The position numbers were made by a program, and so were the translations under genes. A DNA stretch of 64,000 nucleotides, from positions 64,001 to 128,000 of the forward strand of contig JAHQJS010000005.1 in NCBI GenBank assembly GCA_019057385.1, read 5' to 3'. Shown piece by piece: positions 16,630-64,000 of the stretch. The stretch's first letter is position 1. Every line of letters begins with the position of its first letter. This DNA comes from Candidatus Borrarchaeum weybense (lineage in GTDB: Archaea; Asgardarchaeota; Sifarchaeia; Borrarchaeales; Borrarchaeaceae). The notes under the pieces are model-generated. The model searched no databases and was not told the origin of the DNA. It saw only the letters and a list, made by a program, of their open reading frames with translations.

Positions 16630-17472
16630 ATGTCCAAAAAAATGTCTGACCGAGTTAAGAGGATACAAAATCCTCAGAGAATTCTAAAAGTGGTTGCTTA
16701 TACCGCAATCGCCAAACCGTTAAACGGTTCTCTTCCTAGAAGTAATAATTCGCATTTTTTGAGATTATATCCTATAAAGTATTCTTACAGGAATGGTAAA
16801 GAGGAAAAGGAAGCTTTCTCTATATCGTATTTACTTAAAGGGATTAGAGGAGCTATTAGGCATCAAGTGATGAAGACTTGTTATGATGCTGGTGTGGAGG
16901 TGTGCCACACTAGCGATAAAGCGACCGATAAAGCGGGCAACAGTCTTCTTCCTAAAGGTTTTCATCTTTCGGGTTCTTGTAAGGGCAATGGTGAATGCAT
17001 AGTTCATCAAGTTTTTGGATCTATGGGTACTGAAGGTTTAATTTCTGTCTACGCAGAGCCAATTACAGCAATTTCTCATAAATCGGCTAAAACTGAAGTT
17101 AAAGTTCAAAAAGTCCATATTGCCACTGAAAATCGTGTTTGCATGACTTTTGATAACAAACCTGTCCAAGACTTTGGCGAGCGGTATTTTTCCGGTGAAT
17201 TTACCTTTGAAATTGATGTTACGCGTTGTACAAGTGAACAAATTGGTTTATTGATTGAATCAGTTATTAACATGCAAAGACTAGGCAGAGGATACAATGC
17301 GGGATATGGTAGGGTTCAAATTAAGCGATTTCAATTATTAGAGCGCATAATAAAGAGGATTCCGGAGTGGCAAGAAGATAACTTCATTGTCAAAGAAGAA
17401 CTTAACGAAATTTCGTTAAAAAACGAGGTTGTAGAGGCGATGGAGGCTTGGAATGCTTACGTTAATACTTGA
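16630..17472 (+). CDS. cas7: Cas7-family RAMP (Csm3-like), copy 1
   Basis: KGIRGAIRH helix, Cys/His-rich insert ending CIVHQVFG, thumb HIATENRV, G-rich loop LGRGYNAGYGRV. Confidence 0.8.
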   Translation: MSKKMSDRVKRIQNPQRILKVVAYTAIAKPLNGSLPRSNNSHFLRLYPIKYSYRNGKEEKEAFSISYLLKGIRGAIRHQVMKTCYDAGVEVCHTSDKATDKAGNSLLPKGFHLSGSCKGNGECIVHQVFGSMGTEGLISVYAEPITAISHKSAKTEVKVQKVHIATENRVCMTFDNKPVQDFGERYFSGEFTFEIDVTRCTSEQIGLLIESVINMQRLGRGYNAGYGRVQIKRFQLLERIIKRIPEWQEDNFIVKEELNEISLKNEVVEAMEAWNAYVNT

Positions 17473-18274
17473 AGGTCAAATTGTAACTCCAATTGTCACT
17501 AGGAAAACTGAATTTTATATGGAAGGATGTAAAGCTATAATTAAGCATCCAAGAAGACGTTATTACAATAAAATTAATGCATCTAAGCCGATGTATCCCT
17601 ATTCATTTCAGTGCTATTTAGGAGCTATTGAATTACACTTTAGATGTTCAAATACTGCAAAACTAAAACAGAAATTAAAAGATTTGTTGCAGATTAAAGC
17701 GATAGGGCGCTTTCATAGTGAAGGGATGGGATTGGTCCAATGGATCAAGGGCACCATACATTCGAATTATGAGCCAACTCACACAAAAAATACACGAACA
17801 CTCCGAATTCGCAAAGGTCTTCCTCATAATTTAACAAAAGATACCAAGAAACTGTTATTGTATGCTTTGCTTCATGATTTTGTTAATACGCCTAAACATA
17901 AATCTAAAATTTACATAGAACCGAATCTAGACGGCATAGCGTATTTATGCAACCATCATGATAAAACAGAAGACAGTTTCATTCAGTTATTTCAGAAATA
18001 TGACCATCTAGCGGCCATGATTACAAGAAAGATAAGGTCACCCAGAACTAATAGGTATAACTGGTCTTCCAATAGCAATATTAATTTTGAAAAATTAGCA
18101 ACAGAGATAAAGGAGGTGGCATCCAACATTTGGAAGTTGTATGATTACATCTATCAGAGTAAAGAACTAGAGCAATTAAACGAAAGTTTACAACATGGCC
18201 ACACGTCATTAAGAAATCATTTACTGGTGATAGTCAATTTAATAGTGCATGATTTTCAAAGAAATGAACTTTGA
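17453..18274 (+). CDS. Cas5-like RAMP fused to Cas10-type permuted HD domain, copy 1
   Basis: G-rich loop IGRFHSEGMGLV; LLHDF, H, NHHD, YDHLAA and C-terminal TSLRNHLL. Confidence 0.7.
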   Translation: MLTLILEGQIVTPIVTRKTEFYMEGCKAIIKHPRRRYYNKINASKPMYPYSFQCYLGAIELHFRCSNTAKLKQKLKDLLQIKAIGRFHSEGMGLVQWIKGTIHSNYEPTHTKNTRTLRIRKGLPHNLTKDTKKLLLYALLHDFVNTPKHKSKIYIEPNLDGIAYLCNHHDKTEDSFIQLFQKYDHLAAMITRKIRSPRTNRYNWSSNSNINFEKLATEIKEVASNIWKLYDYIYQSKELEQLNESLQHGHTSLRNHLLVIVNLIVHDFQRNEL

Positions 18275-50384: not shown

Positions 50385-50969
50385 TCATACTATTTTGACT
50401 GTTCTAAATGCTTTTCTCATTGACTTAATGCTTTTCCGCGCGATTGATTCAGGATAGAATCCTAGAACCGCCTGATTTAGTGCTTCTAGGGATACTTCTC
50501 CGCTTATTCTGCAGAAAGCACCTAAAATTCCTATGTAATTATTACCGCCATAATTTTGATTTGTTAGGCTTTCATCTATTTCATTCATTGAAACTTTGTC
50601 AACATCTACTGTTGCTGTGGAGAATCCTATGCCGAAGAGTTCTATTAACTCGTATGGGGAATATGATGAATTGACAAGGAGAATGCCTGACCTTTTTAAT
50701 CCCTCTGTAACGTCCAATATTTTCAAAAACGAATCATCCAGTACTATGGTGTAATTTGGGCAGCAGATCTGTGGATAAGTAGATAAAAGTTTCTTGCTAA
50801 TTCGAATGGCAACTTTTAGAATCACTTCTGGTGTTGTGGTTTTAGGTTGAAACACTTGGGAACACTTATTCCTATAAGCTATTGCCTCAGCAAGGATCTC
50901 TGCTAATGTAACTACATTCATGTCTCCTCGACCGATTAAGAGAATTTCTTTGATTTTATAAAATGACAT
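50385..50969 (-). CDS. divergent 2-oxoacid:ferredoxin oxidoreductase gamma-subunit-like protein
   Basis: EILLIGRG, IRIS, PNYTIVLD, GLKRSGILLVNS; orphan with no alpha/beta genes adjacent. Confidence 0.7.
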   Translation of the reverse strand: MSFYKIKEILLIGRGDMNVVTLAEILAEAIAYRNKCSQVFQPKTTTPEVILKVAIRISKKLLSTYPQICCPNYTIVLDDSFLKILDVTEGLKRSGILLVNSSYSPYELIELFGIGFSTATVDVDKVSMNEIDESLTNQNYGGNNYIGILGAFCRISGEVSLEALNQAVLGFYPESIARKSIKSMRKAFRTVKIV

Positions 50970-51188
50970 GAGGGTACAACCTTTCTTAGAATAAATTGAA
51001 TCCTGTGTTTTGCTCCTTTTTATCGCATACTTATACTTTGAAATTAAAATTTAGACACTTTTTAATGGATATTTTTGTCTTAAGAACGCAGATTCTAGTA
51101 AAAACATTTGAATAGCGATTTAAAATTAGATCAAATCTTAAAACTTTTTAAGTAATAATAATTGACTTTGTAAATAGCAAATTTTTTC

Positions 51189-51608
51189 ATGGAGGAAAAA
51201 TTTATGCAATTCTCTCAGTTCTCTATAGCATTCCTGATTGACTTTATTGTGTTTGTAGCTATTGTGGCAGTTTCTGTAGCCATAACGTGCTGGCTTTGGG
51301 GCTATTCGAGATACAAATTTGCTTGGGGGTCAAGTATCGTTACTGGAATTGTAGCCGCTGTCGTATGGATTATATTTAGAATGTTACCGCTCGGTCGTTA
51401 TACCTTGGCTATTGCATTTGTTGCAGTCTTTGTAGTGATTCTTCTTGCACTTCGTCACTTTTGGCCTAAATTTTCTGAATGGCCAACAGCGTTTCTCGGT
51501 ACGCTGGTTTGTATCGTTATAGTCATTGTCATTTGGCTGGTAATTTCATTTATCATTGCGGGGCTGGGTTTGATAGCAGGATATCTGCCCCCACTGAGTA
51601 TATTCTAA
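51189..51608 (+). CDS. membrane protein
   Basis: Four hydrophobic segments. Confidence 0.65.
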   Translation: MEEKFMQFSQFSIAFLIDFIVFVAIVAVSVAITCWLWGYSRYKFAWGSSIVTGIVAAVVWIIFRMLPLGRYTLAIAFVAVFVVILLALRHFWPKFSEWPTAFLGTLVCIVIVIVIWLVISFIIAGLGLIAGYLPPLSIF

Positions 51609-51774
51609 CACCAGAATCTAAAAAATTCTTTTCTTTTTTTTTAAGACGGTCATATGAGTTTTTTGAGAAGCTAAAATGAACTAAGAGATAATAAAATTCA
51701 AGACAACGAATGAAGAGCTGAAATAGATTATTATAAAAAAAAGGCGAAAAAGAGAAAAAATGGATCGGGATAGA

Positions 51775-52098
51775 CTATGTAACTTGTGCAATTATTGCAA
51801 GAATAGCGCCTATTATAACGAGTAATCCCCCGAGACCAAGCACAATTATACCAAAGATTAGGGCAAGTATTATGTATACCCACTCATCTAACTGATCTGC
51901 AACGCGGAGAACAATAATTATTATTCCGATAATTATTGATATAGCCGCTGCAATTAAGCCACCAAGAGCACCTAGCGAACTTGGAACACCAAGTCCGATT
52001 CCCACGAAACTCAACGCTCCTTGGACAATCATAAGGATTGCACCGACAATCACTAGTATCCATGCCGCTAATAAAATACCACCAGACGGTCTAGCCAT
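51775..52098 (-). CDS. small membrane protein
   Basis: Highly hydrophobic Gly/Ile-rich ORF; GGTGA RBS. Confidence 0.65.
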   Translation of the reverse strand: MARPSGGILLAAWILVIVGAILMIVQGALSFVGIGLGVPSSLGALGGLIAAAISIIIGIIIIVLRVADQLDEWVYIILALIFGIIVLGLGGLLVIIGAILAIIAQVT

Positions 52099-52340
52099 AC
52101 AATCACCATTTCAATATCTTATTTCAGGTTAGGATGAACCCGATTTCCTAGTATATAACTTGTTCGCATTCAAGCTTGTAGAGAACCATGGACTTAAACA
52201 AATATCATAGAAGAAATCAACTTCAAGAGAATCAAATAATAACTATTTGAACACTATCGTTTTCTAGATCGAATAAGTGCCAATAACAAAGAATAAGGAT
52301 TCTCTAAAATTATATAGAAAAAAAGGAAAAAATAATAGGA

Positions 52341-53699
52341 TTATACTTTTGGCAAGATTTCGAGCGATTTATCGATTTGTTCCTGTGGCATTTCATAGTC
52401 AACAAGGTTTCCAGCGAGATATTCTTCATATCCTTTTAAATCAAAATGACCGTGTCCGCTGTAATTAAAAGCAATCACTTTTTCTTCACCAGTTTTTTTA
52501 CATTTTTGTGCTTCTTTGATCACTGCAACGATAGCATGATTGGTTTCTGGCGCTGGAACGATCCCTTCTGTCTTTGCAAAGATCACTCCTGCTTCAAAGG
52601 TTTCTATTTGATGGTATGCAACGGACTCCAAGATACCTTCTTTTTGCAGTAGACATAAACTGGGGGCGTCTCCGTGGTATCTTAATCCTCCAGAATGAAT
52701 TGGTGGTGGGACAAACTCGTGCCCAAGAGTGTACATTTTCACTATAGGAGCTAACTTACCAGTATCTCCGTAATCGTAGGCATAAGGTGCTCTTGTCAAT
52801 GTAGGAACCGCCTTCGGCTCAACAGCAATAAATCGGATATCTTTTCCTTTCAATTTGTCTGGAACAAACGGATAAAAGAACCCTGCAAAATTACTGCCGC
52901 CTCCAACGCAGCCAAGCATCATATCAGGATATTCCCCAATCTCTTCAAACTGTTTTTTAACCTCCTGACCTACAATTGTTTGATGTAGCAGGACGTGATT
53001 GAGCACGCTTCCTAGACTGTACTTAATTTTATCGTCGTTTAGAGCATCCTCCACAGCTTCAGATATTGCTAAACCAAGGCTTCCAGGATGGTCAGGATTT
53101 TCCTTTAAAACACTTCGTCCGACCTCTGTATTATTAGACGGACTTCGGAAAACTTCGCTGCCATAAGTCTGCATTAATACGCGTCTATACGGTTTCTGGT
53201 CGTAACTGACACCAACCATATATACACGGCATTTTATGTCAAAAAGGGCACATGCGAGGGAGAGCGCACTTCCCCATTGACCTGCACCTGTTTCAGTTGT
53301 AATTTGTTCTACACCTTCTTTCATTGCAAAATACGCTTGGGCGATAGCTGTGTTGGGCTTATGACTTCCCGTAGGGCTGAGATCCTCTCGCTTATAGTAG
53401 ATCTTAGCTGGCGTATCCAAATACTCCTCAAGCCGTTTTGCCCGATATAGTGGGCTTGGTCTACCTAATCGCCTGTAAGCCTCTTGTAACTCTTCAGGAA
53501 TAGGAATGTATCTTTCTGGGGACATCTCCTGTTGTAGAAGTGCAACAGGGAACAAAGGCATTAAATCAGGAGGACCACAAGGTTCTTTCGTTACAGGGTG
53601 TAACGGAGGAGGGAGAGGGGCTGGTAGGTCGGCTAATACATTATACCATTGAGTTGGTAACTCATCAAGGTTTAAGACAACTTTTACACCATCATACAT
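52341..53699 (-). CDS. trpB2: tryptophan synthase beta, TrpB2 type
   Basis: [41 protein letters not shown]. Confidence 0.95.
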
Positions 53700-54035
53700 T
53701 TTCAATCACCTCAAATTTTTTAGATTTCTATTTTTATTTTTCAAAAAAGTTGGAAACGAGGGGGTATCAATAGCTGTTGAAATAGTGGGCTACTGCCACC
53801 GCCAAGAATGCCAGGGATGCCAAGAAAAGTTTGAAAAGCTCAAAGCTAAGTCAATTAAAAATTCAGGAGTAAAATCTGTTGGAGTTTTATAAAAACCTTT
53901 TTCCGGGCAGGGTGGTTTAGCTTCAAGACTGAGAGAAAAGAAAAGACATTTTGTTAAAGCAAATCCCATTGGCGCAATCAAACCACCTAATCTGCCTATT
54001 TCTTTAGGCTTGTTATTTAAATCTTTCTCTGTTTT

Positions 54036-54183
54036 ATTACATTTTTCGTCCCCTGCGAGTCATCCATTCCCAACAATTGAGGCGTCGGACCTCTGAATTG
54101 GTTCAGTCTCATGCACAAGAACGTGTCCCACGTGATATACGAGGAACATACCGCCTTGTAACTCATGTATTCTCTTTCAAAGA
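54036..54183 (-). repeat. long structured repeat R3 (148 bp), putative guide-RNA scaffold
   Basis: 9 mismatches versus 55447-55594; TTTATATA box just upstream on the minus strand (54194-54187). Confidence 0.9.
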
Positions 54184-54351
54184 TTCTATATAAACACCGC
54201 GATTCTGCTAAACCAACTTTTTCTTACCACTTTTCGATCCTGAAAGCAAAGCAGAGCTGAGTTTTCTACAGCTTATTTTTATCCCTCATTAAGTTGCTTC
54301 CTGAAAAAACGAATTTTTACTGCCACTCCTCTCGAAAACAATTTAACGTTG

Positions 54352-54534
54352 TCACTTCTGTCGATTTTGCATCGCTCCCCACCTTGAAGATTTCTTCCTG
54401 TTCGTCAAATTTAACTCATGATGTTCCGCTAGGAGCCGATACAAGTTGTAACGTGGCAATAAAAAGTTGCATTCGAGGCAACAAAATGTTGTTTTAACAG
54501 ATTCAATACAATGATCCATTCTTGTCATGTTCAC
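54352..54534 (-). CDS. possible small ORF coupled to the Cas5-HD gene
   Basis: GTGA overlap with the upstream stop; no recognisable motif. Confidence 0.25.
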   Translation of the reverse strand: MNMTRMDHCIESVKTTFCCLECNFLLPRYNLYRLLAEHHELNLTNRKKSSRWGAMQNRQK

Positions 54535-55343
54535 AAACCACTATTCAAGTCGTCAAGATAGAGATTTACCATTAATAAGAGATGATTTTTCAAAGACGAA
54601 AACCCAAATTTTAACGCTTCGTTGATCTTATCAAGTGCTTGACATTTTCGAATAAAAGTATAAAGGGCATACGGGGAATATTGGCACTTTTCTATCTCTC
54701 TTTTTAATGCATCGAAATTTATCTTTTCTAGTTCAGTCACACGATAACGCGTGAACGCAGACCATCTAAATTTTCGAGAAATCATTGCAGAAAGTCTATC
54801 ATAATACTGAAGAAGAGGGAGAAGAGGCAATTCAGCCTCATCTGTATCATAGTTGTGGTGATTTTCCACAAACTTACGGACTTCTTCATCAAGTATATTA
54901 ACTTCAGAGTAGATTTTGCTCTGATGTCGATTAGTGTGTACGAAATCATGTAGTAACATAGCTATAACTAATGTTTCTTGCACGTTGGAGAGTTTAGGGA
55001 GTTTTTTACGGATCTTAATTGTTCTTGAAATATAGAGCGGATTTTTTTTGAGTTTACTAACAGAAGTCCATAAGATTTGCCCCATCCCTTCACATGTATA
55101 ACTCCCAACACTGTCAATGGCGAGCGCTTCTTCAAGTTTATATTCTGGAACGATGAACTCAACATTTCCATACCATGCCCTAAAGGTCATAGGCGCACGT
55201 CTTTGCCCTACAGTCAATTTTCCGAATACCCTAGGACGACCATTTATGGTCATCGCTCCAATATCGGCAATTCCAAAATGCCTGCGCCTTGAAACGATAG
55301 GAGTTTTTGTATAACCCATTAATTTAAAGTATTTTTGTGACAT
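54531..55343 (-). CDS. Cas5-like RAMP fused to Cas10-type permuted HD domain, copy 2
   Basis: TPIVSR, VGSYTCEGMGQI G-loop, IRKKLP, LLHDFVHT..HQSKIY, NHH, YDRLSA, SSLKNHLL; collinear with 17453-18274. Confidence 0.7.
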   Translation of the reverse strand: MSQKYFKLMGYTKTPIVSRRRHFGIADIGAMTINGRPRVFGKLTVGQRRAPMTFRAWYGNVEFIVPEYKLEEALAIDSVGSYTCEGMGQILWTSVSKLKKNPLYISRTIKIRKKLPKLSNVQETLVIAMLLHDFVHTNRHQSKIYSEVNILDEEVRKFVENHHNYDTDEAELPLLPLLQYYDRLSAMISRKFRWSAFTRYRVTELEKINFDALKREIEKCQYSPYALYTFIRKCQALDKINEALKFGFSSLKNHLLLMVNLYLDDLNSGL

Positions 55344-55446
55344 TTAATCCCCTCTTTTTAGGTCTTATCTCCTCTTGAAACAAAAGAGAGGAGATACAAA
55401 CCTTGCCAAAGTAAACGCTTTTGCAACTTTTATTAGTAAAGTGGGT

Positions 55447-55594
55447 ATGACATTTATCGTTCCTTGCGAGTCATCCTTCCCCAACAATTGAGGCGTCGGA
55501 CCTCTAAATTGGTTCAGTCTCATGCACAAGAACGTGTCCCACGTGATATACGAGGAACATACCGCCTTGTAACTCATGCATTCTCTTCCAAAGA
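55447..55594 (-). repeat. long structured repeat R2 (148 bp), putative guide-RNA scaffold
   Basis: Direct repeat of 54036-54183; internal hairpins GAGG-N7-CCTC and ACGTG-GGA-CACGT. Confidence 0.9.
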
Positions 55595-55717
55595 GATACT
55601 ATTATTAATATAGTACACGTACAGGCGTCAAGAAGGAAGGAGAGGATTAACCTCTCCCTAAAGTAGGACGGTGTTAAAGCAACATCCGTTGGCGCAATCA
55701 AAACCGCCTGTATTTTG

Positions 55718-55806
55718 ATGACATTTTTCGTCCCCTGCGAGTCATCCTTCCCCAACAATTGAGGCGTCGGACCTCTAAATTGGTTCAGTCTCATGCACAT
55801 GAACGT
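55718..55806 (-). repeat. repeat R1 (89-bp core of the long repeat)
   Basis: Near-identical to the minus-strand 3' 89 nt of R2 and R3. Confidence 0.9.
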
Positions 55807-55868
55807 ATCACTCACAAAAGTAAGTGATAGTCCGTTATGAGATGAGAAAAAAGAATGAGATGGAGTTA

Positions 55869-56687
55869 TCATGCAGTCACCGTTTCTTCGTTTTGTTCGT
55901 TTTGTTCGCTAAAATTCAAAGAATCCCTCCAATCCTCGATATTACTGAGAGAGATAGGTTTTTCAGTTGCTTTTTCGACAATTTTATAATTTCCTTTGTT
56001 ATCTTCCGCGACATTGCGAGTAGTTTCGATCTTCTGGAGGTCGAAATTGAAAATCGTGACGCGACCATAACCACTCGCTCGTCCTGCGCCCAGAATCTCA
56101 ACATATAATAGCGATTCCATGAGAAACTTGATTTCTGTATTCGTTAATTTGGTCACATCAATGTAAAAACTGAAATAGCCGCTGAAATAACTCTCCCTAA
56201 AATCTTGGATAGCTATACCATCATAGGTGAGCGCAATTCTGTTTTCACTAGCGATATGGACTTTTTGGACTGGAACTTCAGTTAAGTATTCTTTATGTTT
56301 GATTGAGGCAATAGGATCTGCTAACACATTAATAGAAGATTTCTCGCCAAATGCACCAAAGATTTTTCGCAGAATGCAGGGAGGATCACATGTACCAAGT
56401 GCATGAAAACCAGAAGGGATGAGTCCAGTGCCATCTTTGAATGTCTCCTTTTCACTGGTATGACATACCTCGATACCGCACTCCTGAGCGAGCGCCATAC
56501 AGGCATGTCTTAGCATCCCTCGAATACCTTTGATATAATAGAATTTAGTGTTGAAGGTTTTGTCTCCATTCACATACGGAAGTTCTCCTAACAAAAGCAT
56601 GGTCGAATTTTTTTGAATCGAGGCATTAAGAGGCTTAGCAATAGGGGTAAAAGCATGAACCACTAACTGTTTTTTGATTTTTCTCAT
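55869..56687 (-). CDS. cas7: Cas7-family RAMP (Csm3-like), copy 2
   Basis: IAKPLN, KGIRGMLRH, EVCH...C...CILRKIFG, HIASENRI, LGAGRASGYGRV; collinear with 16630-17472. Confidence 0.8.
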   Translation of the reverse strand: MRKIKKQLVVHAFTPIAKPLNASIQKNSTMLLLGELPYVNGDKTFNTKFYYIKGIRGMLRHACMALAQECGIEVCHTSEKETFKDGTGLIPSGFHALGTCDPPCILRKIFGAFGEKSSINVLADPIASIKHKEYLTEVPVQKVHIASENRIALTYDGIAIQDFRESYFSGYFSFYIDVTKLTNTEIKFLMESLLYVEILGAGRASGYGRVTIFNFDLQKIETTRNVAEDNKGNYKIVEKATEKPISLSNIEDWRDSLNFSEQNEQNEETVTA

Positions 56688-56721
56688 GTTTCTAACCTCA
56701 ATTATAGTTAGTACAAGTACC

Positions 56722-56776
56722 TATATAAACCTTGCTCAAAATAAACACTTTTCCAACTTTTATTAGTAAATTGGGG
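56722..56776 (-). promoter_or_regulatory. cas7 promoter region (TTTATATA box), matched by the guide after R2
   Basis: TATA at 56729-56722, 35 bp upstream of the ATG; GAGGT RBS. Confidence 0.7.
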
Positions 56777-56780
56777 AATT

Positions 56781-56866
56781 AATTGACTTCCTTCTGAGAA
56801 AATAAGTATTTTAAACGGCTTTTAGCAAAAAAATCATTAAAAAAGTAGAACCCCCTTTATAAATAA
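56781..56866. repeat. 86-bp direct repeat, copy A
   Basis: 66/86 ungapped identity to 62135-62220. Confidence 0.7.
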
Positions 56867-57033
56867 CAACGTATTGAGACGATTTGTATTATTGTCTTTT
56901 TAAAAGAATAGTTGAACAATTTAACAAAATGAAACATTCTTGAAGATTCAAAAGGAATAAATTTATGGTCTCAACTGAACTAACACACGTTTTTAAAAGA
57001 ATATGTATACTATAACTGATTCTTAATTAAGTA

Positions 57034-60000
57034 TTAGGGTAAAAGATCCTTTACAGCAACTGGAGGACCTTTTTTCGGTGGTTTATAGATGCCTTCCAGA
57101 TGTTGAAACCGCTCATACATCAAGTGGAGAGTTTCCTTATCTGGAGCGTAGATAAAGGGGACAAAGCGCTTTTTTTCCAACAAAAAACCCTTGAGTTGTA
57201 GTGCGCACCGCCTTATAGCTTCCTTTACTGTCATATATTCTTCTAGATAGTATACCTTTTGAGCGAGTATGTTGTTAACCAATCTCTCAACTTTGTAGTG
57301 TCCATTCCAGTTAAGATGATAGAATCGTTCACGCTCTAGTGTTTTACGTCGAATGAAATCAGTTTTCGCAAATTTATCATGTATACATGCAAAGATGAAG
57401 GCGAACCTGAACAGGGGAAGAAACACCTCTCGGAAGTCAACAACAGTGCCAAGAAAAGATCTTTGTTTTTTCTTATAATGCAATATCAGTTCGTTGGGTA
57501 CCCAGGAGAACCCTGCCTCAGCGAGTGCTTTTCGACAGTAAAAGTTAAGGTGTCGATAGACAGCATTGAGTGCAGCACTAAAGGGAGTTCGCGCCTTTGC
57601 TTCCCCCAGAAGCACCACTGTGGCAATATAGCGGTCGAGGGTACGACTGATGATTTCAAAATAACTGCCCTGAAGCAAATGCTTGGGAACCTCCCAGGCA
57701 ATGCTTTCCACTACGCCTTCAAGACCGCGAAGGTTGTCAATATTGCCCCGCCAATAGAGAAACGTATACGCCACGCGATCCAGTAGTTGGGATAAGAATT
57801 CCTGTGCCTCTGCAGGAGATAATAATCCCTCTTTTTCAAAATGGAGAATTGCATTGGCGAGTCCCATATTTTTACTCATCACCAGCAACCTCGCTAATAA
57901 CTTGCCTCGTTCCGTCTCTCTGAGTTGCTGGGCGGCGTGTTTCAGTTCATCGGCTAATTGTTGTTTCTCGGGTGTCAGTGTATGCTCTACAAAGAATCTG
58001 CCTTCGGGCGAATTAATATCAATGAGTTTTTTACCATAGTTCTTACGAACCTGTTGCGTAACTTCTCCACCCTCGATGATGATGTGACGGATAGCACCGA
58101 TTAAATATCGCTGTGTTGTTTTCCCGTCCTTTAAGGAATGAGTAAATCGTTTTTTCTTAATATCAAGCTGTTCACCGCACTTGACACGGATGATTCGTTT
58201 TGGTCGTCGAATGTAAACCCTTGTTTTTTTAACCCGCGGGACATAATTTCCAGCCTTGCCTAAAAGCAATTCCAACCCTTTTAACATCAAACCTCGGCGG
58301 CCTGGTTTCACCACTAGGTCACCTTTCATGGTTAAATAATAGCGGGAATTGCATTCAGGACAGACGGTGTATTCGTTATAGCGTGACGGCAGTTCCACTG
58401 TACCGTCGGAGTTGCAGAAGTAGCATGGAGTATCATCAAGTGTTTCTTGTAAGACACGAATTGTGCGCTTTTTTAACTTCCGCGCTTTCGTATGATATTC
58501 GCAGGCACCCATCTTTGGTGCGACATAAGACTTTCTTGCTCGCCTTCCAACTTTTGTGTTATACTTACGATTCAACACGCAAATATGTGCACGTTTCGAT
58601 CTGCGACGGTCCTTCATGGAGTTTATCCGAAAGAAGCCACATGAGCCACAGGTGAGGCGCAGATGTTCAGGAAGACTCACATTCACATCTGCCACATAGA
58701 TTTTGGGGCGACCTCGTAACTGCCCTTGAGAGATAAACTGGATTTTTCCCTGGATTCCTAACCGCTTGACATGTTTAACTACCGTGGTGTAGTGAACTGG
58801 TCTTTTATATTGCTTACGAACTTTTGTCGTAATTTGTTTATAAGAAATAAGTTTATACTGTTTAATAAAGGTGTAGATTGCTTCCTGAAGTCCTGGATAT
58901 GGTTTCGGTCTATGTTTTGGATACCAGCGTCTCCTTCTGCCTTTGTTCCCTCTTTCAACTTCAGGCTCTTTGTATTCAGGATTTAGTTTTGAGGTAAGTT
59001 CTTTAGCAACCCTTGCCGCCCTCGGGTCGCTGCGCCCCAGATAGTCATAACTTGCTTCTGCGATCCATGACGCCGTCTTTCTATGTGCTTCTGCATCACC
59101 CGGTCTTATGTTTACCCGAGTTGCCGCTTCTGTGACTGAAGAACCCTGACTGAGTAACCATACGAAAGAGGTATATTGTTGGGTGGTGTATCGTGTGGTG
59201 CTGCTCACTTCATGCATGCTTCGCCCGATTAGTGTAATCACGTGCCGGGAGAATTCCCGTTCTGAGGAGCAGTGATGTGTGGCAAAAAAATTCTTGATCC
59301 TGATGGCGGTTTTAGTCGGCAGTAAAAATTGGCTGGCCCAGCGTCCTTTGGCTGTTGCACTAAACTTTCCACCATTTCTTTTGATAAAACCTTCCTTGAT
59401 AAGTGTGTGAAGGATTCCCTCTCTTTTTTTCTTCGGTTCATCCTGCTTAGGTCGAGCTAACAGTTTCTCTCTTAGTTGTTGTGTAAAGTCTTTCAACTGG
59501 TCGTGGGTGAATGGTGTCAACAGTAAGCGAAGCTCTCCATTTTTGATTCCGCGTGTAGTGGTGTTCTTCTTGACCCACATGAAGAATTTTCTCGTTACGC
59601 GTTTCAAGTCGAATGGGAGAGAGCCTTCGTGCGTTTCGCGCAATAAGGAGAGTAAATGAAGTTCGTTATTGAGCCAGCAAAGCTCCTCCTCATGAGTCAA
59701 GAGTGCGGTATTCATTAGTTCGGACCAATTCTGTAGCAACGCTTTGTGTTGATGCCAGAAGTAATGTCTTTCAAGTTTGAGGAGCAATTGTTTCGTGGAT
59801 ACCGAGCCTCTAGCTATCAGGGTGAGTACAATATCTGCCAAAGAAGAACGAGCTTGGCTTACTATACGATGTTCTTTGACTATCAATTGTCCTTCAACGA
59901 TTTGAATATCCTTTTGCTTCAAAATCTCTTGGTCGTCCCCCACGAAGATCAGATCGGCATAGCCCACCCGATGATGGCGCGGTCGTGCCGCCCTGCCGCT

Positions 60001-61125
60001 CAATTGTATCAACAGTTGAGAGCTGAACATTCCTGCATCGGCAATTATCACCCTTTTGATCGGAAAGTCCACCCCCTCTCCGTATTGAGTCGTTGATAAA
60101 AAGACCTGAAATTCACCCTTCTTAAGTTTTCTCATAGCTTTTTGTTGTTTCTCTTTACTGAGCCCAGCATGGCTGTAGCCAACGGTTAGATTGAGCCCAA
60201 AACTCTTTAGAAAGGTCTGCAATTCTTCAGCGCGTTGTTCAACCTGATTTCGTGTGTAGCAAAAGATATGCACGATTTTAGTCCGCTGATCATCGCCATA
60301 TGAGTGTAGTTCAAAGGTCTTTTTGATCAAGCGAGCGAACAGAAAGCGCTTTTTTCGTTCGATCTGCTCTATTGTGCTGCCTGAAACTCCAAAAGACGAT
60401 ACAATAAGTTTCGACCGCCGTTCTTTGGTATGGATAAGTTGAGCATCGAGCCAGCTTGCCAGTTCCTCAGCATTCCCCAAAGTAGCCGAGAGATAGATGA
60501 TGTGAGGACGAGGTCGCAACCACGCTTTCGCATTGACAATCGCGGTTTCTAGACACGTACCCCGCCCTTTGTTACCCAGATTATGCAGTTCATCGACTAC
60601 AATTAATCCTATCCTGTCTAAAAACGGATACTCGAAATGTTTGGCTAGCAGCCCATTGAAGGATTCGTAGGTGATGATGAGGATATCCGCAGTTTCAAGC
60701 TCTTCAGGAGACGGTCGGTTATCTCCGCTGACCCGGAGGATGGTGCAGATGTCGTGATACCACTCTTTGAACCTGTCATACATCTGATCGATCAGCCGTT
60801 TGGTCGGCTCAAGGATCACACAGCGCATCCCTTTTCCAAGGATGCGGGTGGACACTATTTGGGCGATCAAGGTTTTTCCAGAAGCGGTGGGAGTGTATAA
60901 CACTTTGTCATGTCTTTGCTTACCAGAAAAGCATGCCTCCCATTGAAAGTCATAGAGAAGTTTAATGTCAGCCTGTTCCAATTGTTGACGTATAAATTCG
61001 TAGTTTAACCCTCTTTTCGTCATTGTAAGGAACTGTCCCCTCAATCCCTGTGTCTCACTTATGATGGTTGAAAAGTTCTTTATAAAGAGGGCAAACCTTT
61101 GGATCACTGGCTTGATAACTGTCAC
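57034..61125 (-). CDS. Ski2/Hel308-like SF2 helicase - wHTH - Zn fingers - Cas1-like integrase fusion
   Basis: Helicase motifs PTASGKT, VVDELH, LSAT, HAGL, GEGVDFP, QLSGRAAR; Cas1-like LRGLEG, PFSAALNAVY, ILH, VVDFREVF. Confidence 0.8.
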   Translation of the reverse strand: MTVIKPVIQRFALFIKNFSTIISETQGLRGQFLTMTKRGLNYEFIRQQLEQADIKLLYDFQWEACFSGKQRHDKVLYTPTASGKTLIAQIVSTRILGKGMRCVILEPTKRLIDQMYDRFKEWYHDICTILRVSGDNRPSPEELETADILIITYESFNGLLAKHFEYPFLDRIGLIVVDELHNLGNKGRGTCLETAIVNAKAWLRPRPHIIYLSATLGNAEELASWLDAQLIHTKERRSKLIVSSFGVSGSTIEQIERKKRFLFARLIKKTFELHSYGDDQRTKIVHIFCYTRNQVEQRAEELQTFLKSFGLNLTVGYSHAGLSKEKQQKAMRKLKKGEFQVFLSTTQYGEGVDFPIKRVIIADAGMFSSQLLIQLSGRAARPRHHRVGYADLIFVGDDQEILKQKDIQIVEGQLIVKEHRIVSQARSSLADIVLTLIARGSVSTKQLLLKLERHYFWHQHKALLQNWSELMNTALLTHEEELCWLNNELHLLSLLRETHEGSLPFDLKRVTRKFFMWVKKNTTTRGIKNGELRLLLTPFTHDQLKDFTQQLREKLLARPKQDEPKKKREGILHTLIKEGFIKRNGGKFSATAKGRWASQFLLPTKTAIRIKNFFATHHCSSEREFSRHVITLIGRSMHEVSSTTRYTTQQYTSFVWLLSQGSSVTEAATRVNIRPGDAEAHRKTASWIAEASYDYLGRSDPRAARVAKELTSKLNPEYKEPEVERGNKGRRRRWYPKHRPKPYPGLQEAIYTFIKQYKLISYKQITTKVRKQYKRPVHYTTVVKHVKRLGIQGKIQFISQGQLRGRPKIYVADVNVSLPEHLRLTCGSCGFFRINSMKDRRRSKRAHICVLNRKYNTKVGRRARKSYVAPKMGACEYHTKARKLKKRTIRVLQETLDDTPCYFCNSDGTVELPSRYNEYTVCPECNSRYYLTMKGDLVVKPGRRGLMLKGLELLLGKAGNYVPRVKKTRVYIRRPKRIIRVKCGEQLDIKKKRFTHSLKDGKTTQRYLIGAIRHIIIEGGEVTQQVRKNYGKKLIDINSPEGRFFVEHTLTPEKQQLADELKHAAQQLRETERGKLLARLLVMSKNMGLANAILHFEKEGLLSPAEAQEFLSQLLDRVAYTFLYWRGNIDNLRGLEGVVESIAWEVPKHLLQGSYFEIISRTLDRYIATVVLLGEAKARTPFSAALNAVYRHLNFYCRKALAEAGFSWVPNELILHYKKKQRSFLGTVVDFREVFLPLFRFAFIFACIHDKFAKTDFIRRKTLERERFYHLNWNGHYKVERLVNNILAQKVYYLEEYMTVKEAIRRCALQLKGFLLEKKRFVPFIYAPDKETLHLMYERFQHLEGIYKPPKKGPPVAVKDLLP

Positions 61126-61176
61126 AAAATCCCCTCTTTATAAATTAATTATAACCTATTGACAGTAGTGGCAACA

Positions 61177-62124
61177 ATGTCTTTCGAAGAACACCTTAAG
61201 CAAGGAAATGAGTTTTATGAACAGAAACAATACCGAAGGGCGTTAAAACATCTCACAAAGGCTGCAAAATTAAAACCAAAAGACTATCAACCTTGGCAGA
61301 AATGTGGAGATATTTATTTTACTTTGCACATCTATCAGAAGGCAATCAAATGTTGGAAAAAGGCGTTTGCGAAAAAACCTGACGAAATGTCACCCTTGGT
61401 CGGCATAGCTAATTCATACGGATTCTTGGGCGAATACGAAAAAGCCATCAAATACTGTCAAAAGATATTGAATACACAACCAAACTTTCCTTTAATTAAA
61501 CTCTTGATGAGCAATATAAAAGATGTACAAGAACATTCACCTCTTACCGATGAAGAGGTAGCAAAAATAAAAGAAGCAGATTCAAAAAAGGTCATCACAA
61601 GTGTCGTAATCCGTGGTATAGACTATTATGTTATTAATAACACATTAAAACTTCGCGATCTAAATATCAAAGATATTAAACACATCAAAGGATTGGAAAA
61701 TCTTACCAATCTCCAAGAACTTGATCTAAGCGGGAATAAAATATCAGTAATTGAGGGATTAGACACACTTTGCAATCTTCAAGAACTTAATTTAAGTGCG
61801 AATAAAATTACTATGATACAAGGTTTAGATACCCTTACCAAGTTACAAGTTTTAGAACTTTACGACAACCAGATCAATAGGATAACTGGACTGGATAACC
61901 TTACGCAATTGAAAAAGTTATATCTTAATGGGAACTCGATAGAAACAATTGACGGAGTGGAACAACTCACGAATTTGGAAGTTTTAAGCCTTGCAGATAA
62001 CCCTCTATGTGAGGAAGATCGACGCGTGTACGAACGAAGTGTGACAGCTATGGATGCCCAGTATTGTGTAAAATATTGCCAGAAAAAGATGTCGATATTT
62101 TCTACCAAGAGTCCTAATAACTAA
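61177..62124 (+). CDS. TPR + leucine-rich repeat (SDS22-like) protein
   Basis: Three TPRs followed by LxxLxxLxLxxNxIxxIxGL repeats. Confidence 0.9.
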   Translation: MSFEEHLKQGNEFYEQKQYRRALKHLTKAAKLKPKDYQPWQKCGDIYFTLHIYQKAIKCWKKAFAKKPDEMSPLVGIANSYGFLGEYEKAIKYCQKILNTQPNFPLIKLLMSNIKDVQEHSPLTDEEVAKIKEADSKKVITSVVIRGIDYYVINNTLKLRDLNIKDIKHIKGLENLTNLQELDLSGNKISVIEGLDTLCNLQELNLSANKITMIQGLDTLTKLQVLELYDNQINRITGLDNLTQLKKLYLNGNSIETIDGVEQLTNLEVLSLADNPLCEEDRRVYERSVTAMDAQYCVKYCQKKMSIFSTKSPNN

Positions 62125-62134
62125 ATAGAGAATC

Positions 62135-62220
62135 AATAGACTTCCTTTTATGATATAAAGTGATTAAAAAGGCTTTTAGTTGAAAAATCAAAGAAAGAGT
62201 AGAACCCTCTTTGTAAATAA
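62135..62220. repeat. 86-bp direct repeat, copy B
   Basis: 66/86 ungapped identity to 56781-56866. Confidence 0.7.
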
Positions 62221-62612
62221 TATGAAGACTAAGAATGTAAGTTGATGAGATCTGAAAATATTTATTTTGTTGATTTACAGATCTCTTCAAATTAATTAGT
62301 CATAATTAACTTTTCAGAAAATTTATGTAGGAGAATCCATATTACATTTTAGTTAATCATAAGAAGCGATATTAAGAAGTTACTATATGAAAGATTATTC
62401 TGATTTAAATTTTACTTTCACCCATCACACTCTAACTCTTATTTGGGTTACATTAAATGTATTAATTATGAAGTTTAGTTGTGCATTTTTGTCAAAATAA
62501 AAATGATAATAATGCAAGTATGTGCTATCAAATAAGATGAGGGGCAGAGTTTACTCTTTTTAATGGGGAAATTCAATCTTCATCTTAACAATGATTTTAG
62601 AGAGTGATAAAC

Positions 62613-63308
62613 ATGGGAGCGATCGAAGGGTTTGTAGTAGGTATTGCCTCTAATGTAGCTTATGATTTAATCAAAAAGCTTTCAAGAATTGAAATATTCA
62701 AGCAGATACCAATAAGAACTAGTTTCAGTCTTGTAATTAATTTTAGAGAAGGTATCGAGGTTATTGAAATTGATAATAATTTGACTAAGACATTTCGAGA
62801 AGAGTTTGGAATCAAAAAAGATCAGAAGAAAGTACCATTTATTGAAATTGATAATCTAAAATTATATGTACTTATAGACTACCATTATCTTGAAGATAGC
62901 GAAAAAATCATTGATGCTTTGAATGATATCTTTGAAATAAGAGAGGAAGATGCAGTTCAACCAGAATTCATAGATGCATTAACCATACAAATTTTTCCCG
63001 ATGATACGAAAGAATTAGATGACATATTAATGGTTATGGATGTTTTGAAAGATATAAAGAGACTTATTCAACGTGATTACAATATTGAAAAAGATTTGAT
63101 CTGGCTACGCTTGGATGTTGATGATGAAAAATCAGCGATCTTAATACAAAAGAAACTTGTTGAAAGTTTTCCCGAATTAATTATTATTAAAAATAAAGAT
63201 ATGCAGAATAATGTTTTTTTGAAAATAAAAGATACTAGTGACTTAGAATTAAAACAAATAATAGATGTTCTAAAATCTAACAGAATCAGAAAAATACTAC
63301 ACATTTGA
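62613..63308 (+). CDS. hypothetical protein
   Basis: Long AT-rich ORF, no recognised motif. Confidence 0.6.
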   Translation: MGAIEGFVVGIASNVAYDLIKKLSRIEIFKQIPIRTSFSLVINFREGIEVIEIDNNLTKTFREEFGIKKDQKKVPFIEIDNLKLYVLIDYHYLEDSEKIIDALNDIFEIREEDAVQPEFIDALTIQIFPDDTKELDDILMVMDVLKDIKRLIQRDYNIEKDLIWLRLDVDDEKSAILIQKKLVESFPELIIIKNKDMQNNVFLKIKDTSDLELKQIIDVLKSNRIRKILHI

Positions 63309-63317
63309 GATGATTTA

Positions 63318-64000
63318 ATGGTTTTTGTCTGCCGAGTTTTGAAAATTATGCCAAGATATGATGATCAAGTCAAGCAATTATTGAAAAAACCATCTGAAAT
63401 AGTATTTGATACAATAAGACAAAGTGAACTCATTGAATTAAAGCTATACATAGATGAACCTGCTGAAGAGAACGATTTTGGCTTTTTAATAACAGCCTAT
63501 GTTGATATACCTCAAACATTATGGAGTAAAGATACAGGTACTTATTCTACGAAAATCACAAAAAAACTAGAAGTTCAAATATTTACTACTCCTGAAGTTG
63601 GAAACTATTTAGTCGTATTTGCATCAAATATTCTTGTAAAGGAATTTGTAAATTCTGTAACTAAGATATTAAATACAGTTGAATGGTTTAAGCCAGTATT
63701 AATAGATACTGACCGAAAAGAGGAAGAGATAAGAAATGAGTTAGGCGATTTTAGGCGTGTTTACGTGAAAGATATGGATGATGATCTTGTAAAAACAGCA
63801 ACAATGGGTGGTCTAAGACTAGAATTGTCGTCAGATTATGCTAGATATATTAGAGATTATGGGGGTAGGCTAAGTGCAGTTTCGCTTATTTATGAAGGTA
63901 ATTGGATGATGATAACGTTTAGAGGAATTTTTTATTCACCTAGTAAAGATGCCGAAAGTAGGAAAGTTGAAATAATTCACAACTTACTGAAACTTCTAAA
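63318..64000 (+). CDS. hypothetical protein, truncated by window end
   Basis: Open frame MVFVCRVLKIMPRYDDQVKQLL... running off the window. Confidence 0.6.
   Translation, partial: MVFVCRVLKIMPRYDDQVKQLLKKPSEIVFDTIRQSELIELKLYIDEPAEENDFGFLITAYVDIPQTLWSKDTGTYSTKITKKLEVQIFTTPEVGNYLVVFASNILVKEFVNSVTKILNTVEWFKPVLIDTDRKEEEIRNELGDFRRVYVKDMDDDLVKTATMGGLRLELSSDYARYIRDYGGRLSAVSLIYEGNWMMITFRGIFYSPSKDAESRKVEIIHNLLKLL

What the first reader, a model, noticed from the sequence alone, without database searches (positions are those of the whole stretch)
57034..61125. Hel308/Ski2-like helicase fused to a C-terminal Cas1 domain
Seen: intact SF2 motifs I-VI and Hel308-like segments (ATAKGRWASQF, PGDAEAHRKTASWI), then a wHTH and two Cys clusters (CGSC..C..C..H; CYFC..CPEC). 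The last ~390 aa follow Cas1 motif order, with candidate catalytic E (LRGLEG), H (ILH) and D/E (VDFREVF). The gene is visibly more GC-rich than its flanks. Known: Cas1 fusions are usually with Cas4, RT or Cas6. Inference: ATP-driven unwinding coupled to integration, possibly filling the targeting-ATPase role.
Basis: partly seen in the sequence, partly recalled or inferred. Interest (0 to 1): 0.85.

Follow-up and report, generated by a model that had tools for sequence, protein, structure and literature searches.

The report
Helicase-Cas1 fusion in mobile ARAMP island
An Asgard archaeon encodes one large protein that joins a Hel308-type DNA helicase to an apparently active Cas1 integrase; the kind is already catalogued (array-less "ARAMP" CRISPR derivatives) but untested, and here it sits in a 10.5-kb island that a sister genome lacks and that carries, next to a conserved folded RNA, a copy of the DNA at its own insertion site.

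Summary
ORF 57034-61125 (-) is intact, though the likely start is the conserved Met35 at 61023. It encodes a Hel308/Ski2-like helicase, a linker with two invariant Cys clusters, and a two-domain Cas1 whose E/H/D/[DE] residues are conserved in 37 of 37 relatives. The fusion is not an artefact: five other full-length homologues exist, and this genome holds five such fusions.

It is not new as a kind. The gene heads an array-less cassette of helicase-Cas1, a Cas7-like RAMP and an HD protein. That matches ARAMP (Makarova et al. 2020), which I could read only through later reviews. This scan has met ARAMP before on other DNA, and a later check on a paralogue says "in print".

New here:
- The genome has 11 Cas7/HD pairs, 6 of them with this Cas1.
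- Each gene of a pair is followed by a ~125-nt element with covarying helices (R).
- A sister genome has clean empty sites for four islands.
- In three islands, a 32-38-nt segment starting 6-10 nt after an R, and followed by a hairpin, copies the chromosomal DNA that begins at the island junction.

This points to Cas1-driven, R-linked integration. It could be RNA-guided, or it could reflect target duplication next to R. Neither is proven.

The parts
57034..61125 (-). Helicase-Cas1 fusion ORF (1363 aa from GTG; the conserved start is Met35, the ATG at 61023, giving about 1329 aa)
59980..60951 (-). SF2 helicase core (DEAD residues 59-221, Helicase_C residues 279-382), with motifs I, II (DELH) and VI invariant
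58966..59928 (-). Hel308-like C-terminal domains (winged helix / ratchet / helical, about residues 400-720). The model aligns over the whole length of Hel308, Hjm and Pol theta helicase, but the segment at residues 453-544 has low confidence.
58291..58908 (-). Linker (about residues 740-945) with a weak wHTH lead and two invariant Cys clusters (C826/C829/C849/C875; C901/C904/C922/C925)
   Evidence: no family found
57091..58203 (-). Cas1 domain (about residues 975-1345), with an N-terminal beta domain and an alpha-helical catalytic domain. Catalytic codons: E1136 at 57718-57720, H1216 at 57478-57480, D1230 at 57436-57438, E1233 at 57427-57429.
55869..56687 (-). Cas7-like RAMP gene (272 aa; Pfam RAMPs 32.5 bits; weak Csm3 match)
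54531..55343 (-). 270-aa protein with a conserved HD-type motif set (LLHDFVH, NHHNY, YDR) and a Gly-rich N-terminal part. This is the ARAMP 'Cas5-HD' position. No family match was found.
55719..55843 (-). R1: copy of the conserved ~125-nt structured element (R), immediately after cas7
55448..55574 (-). R2: second R copy, upstream of the HD gene. A related locus (L012) has a single R here.
54037..54163 (-). R3: terminal R copy after the HD gene, about 47 nt from the island junction
55672..55709 (-). 38-nt segment starting 10 nt after R1 and followed by a 9-bp hairpin. It copies the chromosomal DNA at the island junction (34 of 39 positions).
   Evidence: (D5)
53952..53988 (-). Chromosomal flank copied by the post-R1 segment. 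Homology to the sister genome's empty site begins at 53987.
53988..64000 (.). Island absent from sister genome G308, about 10.5 kb. It runs past the window end to about contig C5:128530 (window-equivalent about 64530).
55394..55447 (-). Segment after R2 (upstream of the HD gene) that resembles the region upstream of cas7 (56727-56775). The same pairing is seen in 7 of this genome's loci and 4 loci from other genomes. It ends in a TATA-like box.
   Evidence: (D3)
56769..56866 (.). 98-nt direct repeat, copy A, between the helicase-Cas1 stop and cas7
   Evidence: (D2)
62123..62220 (.). 98-nt direct repeat, copy B (76% identical to A), just past the TPR-LRR gene. Homology to locus L012 ends at 62106.
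61159..62124 (+). Divergent TPR + LRR protein gene. A distant helicase-Cas1 relative (P0017) carries a C-terminal LRR domain.

Best explanation
The gene is an intact member of the diverged Cas1 family linked to ARAMP (Asgard RAMP) cassettes, fused to a Hel308-like SF2 helicase.

It heads a cassette with no CRISPR array and no cas2. The order is helicase-Cas1, then a Cas7-like RAMP, then R, then an HD protein, then R. R is a conserved, strand-specific ~125-nt element with covarying helices, probably an RNA. The cassette is part of a discrete island that is present in this genome and cleanly absent in a sister genome.

Most likely working model (inferred):
- The Cas1 domain is an active DNA integrase that acts on these islands next to R.
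- The helicase supplies ATP-driven unwinding or translocation at the target or donor.
- The Cas7-like and HD proteins bind R-derived RNA.
- The 32-38-nt segment after R copies the DNA at the island junction, which suggests the insertion site is specified by, or recorded in, that segment.

Shown: domain identity, conserved catalytic residues, cassette conservation, R covariation, empty sites, and the junction copies.

Inferred: any enzymatic activity, that R is transcribed, RNA binding, and the direction of causality between the post-R segment and the insertion.
For: Identity: (Pfam, NCBIfam, PDB sequence). Cas1 fold, top 50 hits all Cas1 or casposase; full-length Hel308, Hjm and Pol theta helicase matches at E about 1e-23 and TM 0.59-0.62. 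E/H/D/[DE] conserved in 37 of 37.

Not an artefact: one search finds five other full-length fusions at 36-87% identity. One search finds six family members in this genome, five of them in open frames of 1325-1367 aa.

Cassette: searches show the same gene order in loci from other assemblies. One search finds relatives in Ca. Borrarchaeum and a Promethearchaeota MAG. Searches give the ARAMP descriptions in reviews.

R element: one search shows R conserved at 75-90% nt identity in all loci, often better than the neighbouring coding sequence. Searches cover 36 copies and 27 predicted pairs. Of pair cells, 96% are paired against 45-56% for shifted controls. Thirteen pairs show compensatory changes, and many G-U pairs fix the strand.

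Mobility: searches show empty sites in G308 (same genus; flanks 92-94% identical) for four islands.

Junction copies.
- Island 1: 34/39 to its own flank.
- Island 2: 31/32 to the G308 empty site.
- Island 3: 36/38 to the G308 empty site.
- Each copy starts 6-10 nt after R, and the chromosomal copy starts 0-7 nt from the junction.

Similar post-R matches to downstream DNA of 48 and 52 nt occur in loci from two other genomes. Shuffled controls reached at most 30 bits; the matches above score 56-66, except island 1 at 30 bits (ungapped BLAST) or 47 (gapped score).

Hairpins: 20 of 36 R copies have a hairpin of at least 8 bp, most starting 45-63 nt after R, against 22% of random 110-mers.
Against: There is no expression or biochemical data, and no RNA run was listed.

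The family profile does not reach any solved Cas1 by sequence, so the domain is very diverged.

No cas2, PolB, terminal inverted repeats or clear short target duplication were found at the ends of the whole island.

Five of the 11 Cas7/HD pairs lack an adjacent Cas1, so the effector pair does not need the fusion in cis.

The paralogous cassettes are 65-80% identical, not near-identical, so there is no sign of a recent burst.

Most terminal post-R segments have no detectable match in the genome.

The junction copies can also be read as target duplications from nested insertions.

The primary ARAMP paper could not be read.
Confidence: 0.6

Rival explanations
1. R-anchored integration with target duplication (adaptation-like). 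The island originally ended at R and abutted the chromosome. The Cas1 then inserted further DNA (152 nt, 288 nt, or a 1.68-kb HD-gene cassette) at a fixed distance from R. It made staggered cuts 32-38 bp apart, so the stretch next to R was duplicated, as a CRISPR repeat is duplicated on spacer acquisition. The post-R segment is then a duplication scar, not a guide.
For: The two copies are direct repeats on the same strand, with the first always 6-10 nt from R. Compared with locus L012, which has one R between cas7 and the HD gene, the window has R1, a 144-nt insert and R2, like a repeat-spacer-repeat unit. Two islands end in a short sequence that resembles the 3' end of R (seen by eye in the output). 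Cassettes made of a gene plus R occur singly: L013 lacks cas7 and island 3 lacks the HD gene.
Against: The inserted pieces are unrelated to each other, yet each begins with a strong hairpin right after the copy. A scar model does not explain this. The duplication length varies (32-38 nt here, 48-52 nt in other genomes). In each island both events must have occurred after the split from G308.
Confidence: 0.2
2. A defence system that is not mobile by itself. The Cas7-like and HD proteins with R RNA recognise invaders. The helicase-Cas1 acts as a nuclease-helicase effector or DNA-damage sensor, comparable to Cas3 or Hachiman HamAB. The presence/absence pattern reflects ordinary turnover of defence islands.
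For: The best PADLOC matches of the helicase part are defence helicases: SngC (80.9 bits), BrxHI and HamB. Reviews treat ARAMP as a probable defence system. Eleven diverged copies per genome resemble a diversified immune gene family.
Against: It does not explain why post-R segments copy the host DNA at the island's own junction in three islands. The full integrase-type catalytic set is kept across the family.
Confidence: 0.15
3. A DNA-repair or recombination enzyme. It would combine a Hel308-type fork or branch helicase with Cas1 acting as a branched-DNA nuclease, unrelated to the neighbouring RAMP genes.
For: Hel308 family enzymes act at stalled forks (established knowledge). One paper's title and abstract link Cas1 to archaeal DNA repair (PMC9051519, listed; not read in full).
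Against: Gene order with the Cas7-like and HD genes is conserved from 36% to 87% identity. The family is rare, found in 13 of 400 sampled genomes of the phylum. It is multi-copy and present or absent between sister genomes. None of this is expected of a housekeeping repair gene.
Confidence: 0.04
4. An assembly artefact, or a decayed gene in which a helicase gene and a cas1 gene are merged by error.
For: None found.
Against: The frame is open. The linker and both ends are conserved in six proteins from independent contigs. There are five intact fusions in one 8-contig genome, and more distant fusions of 1100-2600 aa elsewhere.
Confidence: 0.01

Closest known systems
ARAMP (Asgard RAMP) array-less CRISPR derivatives with a distinct Cas1 (Makarova, Wolf, Shmakov, Liu, Li, Koonin 2020, CRISPR J 3:156). 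Read here only through PMC8730458 and PMC12669027.
   Same: Asgard host. Cas7-like plus Cas5-like/HD genes with a very diverged Cas1. No CRISPR array. Weak affinity to type III (Csm3).
   Different: From the texts I could read, I cannot confirm that the helicase fusion itself is described. A later check of this scan on a paralogue says it is in print. Those texts do not mention any of the following: the R structured element, the 11-fold expansion in one genome, the empty sites, or the junction copies next to R. They call the systems array-less and of enigmatic mechanism.
CRISPR adaptation integrase Cas1 (PF01867; e.g. Archaeoglobus fulgidus Cas1, PDB 4n06)
   Same: Two-domain fold, and the catalytic Glu, His and DxxE-type acidic pair.
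   Different: No cas2 and no array next to it. It is fused to a 950-residue N-terminal helicase and linker. It is too diverged for its profile to find solved Cas1 by sequence. The genome has a separate canonical Cas1 with a 37-nt-repeat array.
Casposase (casposon Cas1; PDB 6opm)
   Same: Best Foldseek E-value (7.8e-10). A Cas1 used outside CRISPR adaptation. Association with inserted DNA.
   Different: No PolB. No terminal inverted repeats and no clear short target duplication at the island ends. The fold score does not separate casposase from CRISPR Cas1.
Hel308/Hjm and the Pol theta helicase domain (Ski2-like SF2 helicases; PDB 2va8, 2zj8, 9bh7)
   Same: DExH core plus matching C-terminal domains over the whole length (TM 0.59-0.62).
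   Different: Far below the NCBIfam Hel308 equivalog cut-off (109 bits against 1200), so it is a relative and not an orthologue. It carries a Zn-cluster linker and Cas1 at its C-terminus.
CRISPR-associated transposons (CAST I-F, I-B, V-K) with homing guides
   Same: A nuclease-poor CRISPR effector travels with an integrase. A guide-like segment in the element matches DNA beside the element's own insertion site.
   Different: No Tn7 genes. The integrase would be Cas1. The effector is type III-derived with an HD protein. The 'repeat' is a 125-nt structured element. The target abuts the junction (0-7 nt) instead of lying about 50 bp away. RNA guidance is not shown.

Membership tests
Cas1 (PF01867) | Profile match above the curated cut-off | tested here: met
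   36.5 bits against 22.3. The NCBIfam cas1 equivalog gives 30 bits against 71.7, which is not met.
Cas1 (PF01867) | Two-domain Cas1 fold (N-terminal beta domain plus alpha-helical catalytic domain) | tested here: met
   AF2 pLDDT 73.5. The top 50 Foldseek PDB hits are all Cas1 or casposase, with 360-400 aligned columns.
Cas1 (PF01867) | Catalytic Glu, His and acidic pair | tested here: met
   E1136, H1216, D1230 and E1233 align to GIEG, GFLH and DxxE. The DxxE register was set by eye against the A. fulgidus alignment. They are conserved in 37 of 37 members.
CRISPR adaptation module | Adjacent cas2 and a CRISPR array | tested here: not met
   The window has no array, and the ORFs I scanned around the gene (50385-63998) gave no Cas2 family match. 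The only array found is at the canonical locus on contig C4.
Hel308 / Ski2-like helicases | SF2 motifs I, II (DExH) and VI | tested here: met
   GKT, DELH and QxxGRAAR are invariant.
Hel308 / Ski2-like helicases | Winged-helix and ratchet domains after the RecA core | tested here: inconclusive
   Full-length Foldseek alignments to 2va8, 2zj8 and 9bh7 give TM about 0.6. However, model residues 419-510 have pLDDT below 50.
Hel308 orthologue (NF040935) | Equivalog score | tested here: not met
   109 bits against a cut-off of 1200.
ARAMP | Cas7-like RAMP next to the Cas1 | tested here: met
   Pfam RAMPs 32.5 bits against 22.1. Csm3 at E 2e-6. The position is conserved in L001, L002 and L012.
ARAMP | Cas5-like protein with a nuclease (HD) domain | tested here: inconclusive
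   HD-type motifs are invariant in four homologues. There is no Pfam, PADLOC or PDB match, and the Atlas gives only an HD lead at 0.75. A Cas5 fold was not tested.
ARAMP | Asgard host and no CRISPR array | tested here: met
   Relatives lie in Ca. Borrarchaeum yapensis and a Promethearchaeota MAG. No array is present in the window.
Casposon | Family B polymerase, terminal inverted repeats, 14-15-bp target duplication | tested here: not met
   The scanned ORFs inside the window part of the island gave no PolB family match. No inverted or direct repeat longer than 9 nt was found between the island ends.
CAST-like RNA-guided transposon | Guide in the element matching DNA beside its insertion site | tested here: inconclusive
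   Sequence copies exist in three islands, but transcription and guidance are untested. Tn7 genes were not seen.

The most novel reading that the evidence does not exclude
ARAMP islands are RNA-guided mobile or homing elements that use Cas1 rather than a Tn7-type or DDE transposase. Each R plus the ~32-50-nt segment after it would be a crRNA-like guide, closed by a hairpin. The Cas7-like/HD complex would read it to find the chromosomal site, and the helicase-Cas1 would then insert or copy the island right at the edge of that site. The same enzyme might also write new segments next to R. In two of three islands the guide matches the sister genome's empty site better than the occupied site. This fits a homing element whose occupied target drifts.
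Probability: 0.3. Interest if true: 0.95.

Novelty: new member of a known kind. Interest (0 to 1): 0.6.

Why it matters
ARAMP systems and their odd Cas1 have been catalogued since 2020. The reviews I could read call their mechanism enigmatic, and I found no experimental test. Cas1 is the only integrase known to have been turned from a transposase (casposons) into an immune-memory enzyme.

A helicase-coupled Cas1 that travels with a type III-derived effector and a structured RNA could be a third use of the same enzyme. If the junction copies next to R reflect guidance, this would be RNA-guided DNA insertion by a Cas1, with possible use as a compact programmable integrase. If they are duplication scars, they record a Cas1 integration reaction with a very long stagger, positioned by an RNA-like element.

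Either way, this genome gives concrete substrates for a bench test. It has five intact fusions, eleven cassettes, and four islands with empty sites in a sister genome (exact junctions resolved for three).

Tried and rejected
- Reading the primary ARAMP and HRAMP papers (PMC7307682, its DOI, PMC6702361): not held.
- Literature searches for a helicase-Cas1 or Hel308-Cas1 fusion: nothing beyond the ARAMP reviews.
- Profile of the Cas1 domain against PDB sequences: no Cas1 hit. Profiles of the Cas7-like and HD proteins against PDB: nothing useful.
- The search for related loci with the full-length alignment in genome contigs: no confirmed relative.
- Exact-sequence look-up of P0005: not on record.
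- Rfam scan of 53500-62500 at E up to 1: no match.
- RNA runs: no RNA holder was listed.
- tRNA scan of the window: none.
- Right flank of the island (62250-64000) in sister genomes: no match. This is because it lies inside the island.
- Repeats between the two island ends: nothing longer than 9 nt.
- Genome-wide search for matches to other post-R segments: only chance-level hits.
- Locus C4:741001-761000 against G308: a complex rearrangement with a 46-48-nt repeat and a half R. I could not resolve it.
- Atlas look-ups of the HD protein and of the linker: scores of 0.75, leads only.
- A Cas1 phylogeny against casposases was considered and dropped. The domain is too diverged for a reliable tree, and Foldseek scores do not separate the groups.
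Both segments lie just upstream of TATA-like boxes in 7 of this genome's loci, so a shared promoter or operator is simpler. They do co-vary within loci.

Full report
**1. The observation**

The minus-strand ORF 57034-61125 is open and gives 1363 residues from a GTG. Six full-length homologues align from Met35, so the real start is probably the ATG at 61023.

Pfam finds three domains:
- DEAD at residues 59-221.
- Helicase_C at residues 279-382.
- Cas_Cas1 at residues 984-1261, at 36.5 bits against a gathering score of 22.3.

The best NCBIfam and PDB sequence matches of the N-terminal half are Hel308/Hjm. Two Cys clusters in the linker are invariant. The gene has 0.43-0.48 GC against 0.28-0.37 in its immediate flanks, but other genes in the window reach 0.43-0.45.

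**2. Domain tests**

*Cas1.* An AF2 model of residues 960-1363 (pLDDT 73.5) returns only Cas1 or casposase chains in the top 50 Foldseek hits. Both Cas1 domains align. A profile-profile alignment to the genome's own canonical Cas1 places three features:
- E1136 on the GIEG glutamate.
- H1216 on the GFLH histidine.
- The DFRE motif on the acidic pair.

I fixed the register of that last motif by eye against the A. fulgidus Cas1 alignment. In 37 family members E1136, N1187 and H1216 are invariant. Position 1230 is D in 36 and E in one. Position 1233 is always D or E.

*Helicase.* A model of residues 35-760 (pLDDT 67.5) aligns over its full length with the Pol theta helicase domain, Hel308 and Hjm, at E about 1e-23 and TM 0.59-0.62. 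One internal segment has low confidence. The protein is a Hel308-like relative, not an orthologue, since it scores 109 bits against the equivalog cut-off of 1200.

**3. The fusion is real and recurrent**

A search restricted to proteins of similar length found five other fusions of 1327-1356 aa, at 36-87% identity in the Cas1 part.

A profile of the Cas1 domain finds only 42 cluster representatives among 1.84 billion. Most are 1100-2600 aa. Of the six I scanned, five carry DEAD and Helicase_C ahead of Cas_Cas1, one of them with a C-terminal LRR domain; P0013 gave no Pfam match.

The window's own genome has 4.18 Mb in 8 contigs. It holds one canonical Cas1 beside a 37-nt-repeat CRISPR array. 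It also holds six members of this diverged family. Five lie in open frames of 1325-1367 aa, and one is a 782-aa form without the helicase.

In 400 sampled genomes of the phylum, 13 genomes in 8 of 85 genera have a match. Close relatives occur only in the same genus.

**4. Context**

In loci from other assemblies the fusion is followed by a ~270-aa RAMP protein and then by a ~270-aa protein.

The first is Cas7-like. It scores 32.5 bits on Pfam RAMPs and gives a weak Csm3 match.

The second has invariant HD-type motifs but matches no family. One locus lacks the Cas7-like gene.

Cas7-like relatives occur in Ca. Borrarchaeum yapensis and a Promethearchaeota MAG, so the host is an Asgard archaeon. 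There the gene pair often stands without the fusion.

This matches ARAMP as reviews describe it: array-less, type III-derived, mostly with a distinct Cas1, and of enigmatic mechanism. I could not read the 2020 primary paper.

Notes of this scan report ARAMP cassettes with a conserved folded RNA in other genomes. For a paralogue in this genome, a later check reads "it is in print". I therefore rate the protein as a new member of a known kind.

**5. The cassette is multi-copy and carries a structured element**

The genome has 11 Cas7-like genes (one degenerate, with an in-frame TGA) and about as many HD genes, mostly in pairs, two of the HD genes broken or partial. Six pairs lie next to the diverged Cas1.

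A ~125-nt element, R, follows the Cas7-like gene and the HD gene in every locus examined, including the distant ones. Its nucleotide identity is often higher than that of the adjacent coding DNA.

I analysed 36 copies:
- A consensus fold has 27 pairs.
- 96% of pair cells are paired, against 45-56% for shifted controls.
- 13 pairs show changes on both sides.
- Many G-U pairs fix the strand as the gene strand.

Rfam has no match.

**6. The islands are present or absent between sister genomes**

Genome G308 belongs to the same genus, and its flanks are 92-94% identical. On single contigs it joins the two sides of four islands:
- The window island, about 10.5 kb, from 53988 to about C5:128530.
- C3:91587-98503, which is exactly R, the HD gene, R, cas7 and the helicase-Cas1.
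- C4:904159-910272, where G308 keeps a solo R.
- C3:60790-66041, which holds cas7 and R only.

I found no inverted repeats and no clear short duplication at the ends of the window island.

**7. A copy of the junction DNA sits next to R**

In the three islands with a resolved R-side junction, a 32-38-nt segment starting 6-10 nt after an R is a same-strand copy of chromosomal DNA. That chromosomal DNA begins 0-7 nt from the junction.

| Island | Match to own flank | Match to G308 empty site |
|---|---|---|
| Window (island 1) | 34/39 | 27/32 |
| C3:91587 (island 2) | 25/30 | 31/32 |
| C3:60790 (island 3) | 35/41 | 36/38 |

The DNA between the copy and the junction is unique to each island, at about 1.7 kb, 288 nt and 152 nt. 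Each copy is followed by a perfect hairpin. Twenty of 36 R copies have a hairpin of at least 8 bp, most starting 45-63 nt after R, against 22% of random 110-mers.

Loci from two other genomes show 48-nt and 52-nt post-R matches a few hundred nt downstream. Shuffled controls reached at most 30 bits. The window match alone is borderline by score. Its position at the junction is what makes it notable.

**8. Reading**

Two models fit the data, and both need an integrase acting beside R.

In model A, R plus the segment is a guide RNA, and the island is inserted or homed at the edge of its target. The following fit this model:
- the spacer-like length of the segment;
- its fixed position after R;
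- the hairpin that follows it;
- the better match to the empty allele in two of the three islands.

In model B, the island first ended at R. Later insertions at a fixed distance from R then duplicated 32-38 bp, as in spacer acquisition. This is favoured by the R1-insert-R2 layout compared with locus L012, which has a single R. It is also favoured by R-like sequences at two island ends (seen by eye).

A pure defence role and a repair role are less able to explain the junction copies. Nothing here shows what the helicase does.

**9. A second pairing**

The segment after the intergenic R resembles the region upstream of cas7 in 7 of this genome's loci and 4 loci from other genomes. Both lie just upstream of TATA-like boxes.

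Identity within a locus is 0.73-0.86. That exceeds the identity of the same segment between clades of loci, which is 0.57-0.68. The two sites therefore evolve in concert. A shared promoter or operator is the simpler reading, and an autoregulatory guide is possible.

**10. Verdict**

The mechanism is unproven. The kind is already catalogued.

The added value lies in this genome's eleven cassettes, the empty sites and the junction copies. Together these make the function of the ARAMP Cas1 testable.

Noticed in passing
window 16681-18262 (+): A second, more diverged Cas7-like / HD-protein pair lies in the same window. The Cas7-like match has one in-frame TGA, so this may be a decaying ARAMP pair. 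No Cas1 is adjacent.
   Followed up: partly
window 61159-62124 (+); L006 13230-15470; protein P0017: A TPR/LRR protein gene is divergent from the helicase-Cas1 here, and a TPR protein sits at the paralogous locus. One distant relative has an LRR domain fused to the C-terminus of the helicase-Cas1. This may indicate a functional partner.
   Followed up: partly
window 56769-56866 and 62123-62220: 98-nt direct repeats (76% identical) bracket the helicase-Cas1 and TPR-LRR genes. In locus L013 the copy-B-like sequence lies between the helicase-Cas1 and the next gene. Copy B may therefore be a relic of another cassette junction, or a cassette boundary.
   Followed up: partly
window 55394-55447 vs 56727-56775, and 6 other loci of this genome plus 4 loci from other genomes: The region upstream of the HD gene (right after R) and the region upstream of cas7 are alike within each locus, and more alike than the same region is between clades of loci. 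This indicates concerted evolution of two promoter-proximal sites.
   Followed up: yes
L020 15118-15436 (genome contig C3:99118-99436): A ~320-nt element is present here but absent at the matching site of sister genome G308. G308 holds more than 25 copies of it elsewhere, some only ~117 nt long. It looks like a miniature mobile element.
   Followed up: no
L007 (genome contig C4:143000-162999): A canonical CRISPR-Cas locus with a 37-nt repeat array of several dozen spacers and an ordinary Cas1 (269.6 bits). The organism therefore has a normal adaptation module as well as the ARAMP Cas1 genes.
   Followed up: partly
L013 14071-15440: One related locus has helicase-Cas1, then the HD protein, then R, with no Cas7-like gene. 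Island C3:60790-66041 has cas7 and R with no HD gene. Units of a gene plus R seem to shuffle independently.
   Followed up: partly
genome contig C4:903455-903579, C4:562853-562972, C4:1262875-1262998: R copies at these three places have no Cas7-like or HD gene match next to them.
   Followed up: no
L021 2016-2058 and 6517-6564; L030 746-791 and 3274-3321: At the C4:750609 locus a 46-48-nt sequence occurs twice in both this genome and G308. In G308 one copy is directly followed by half an R. This is an unresolved rearrangement at another helicase-Cas1 island.
   Followed up: partly
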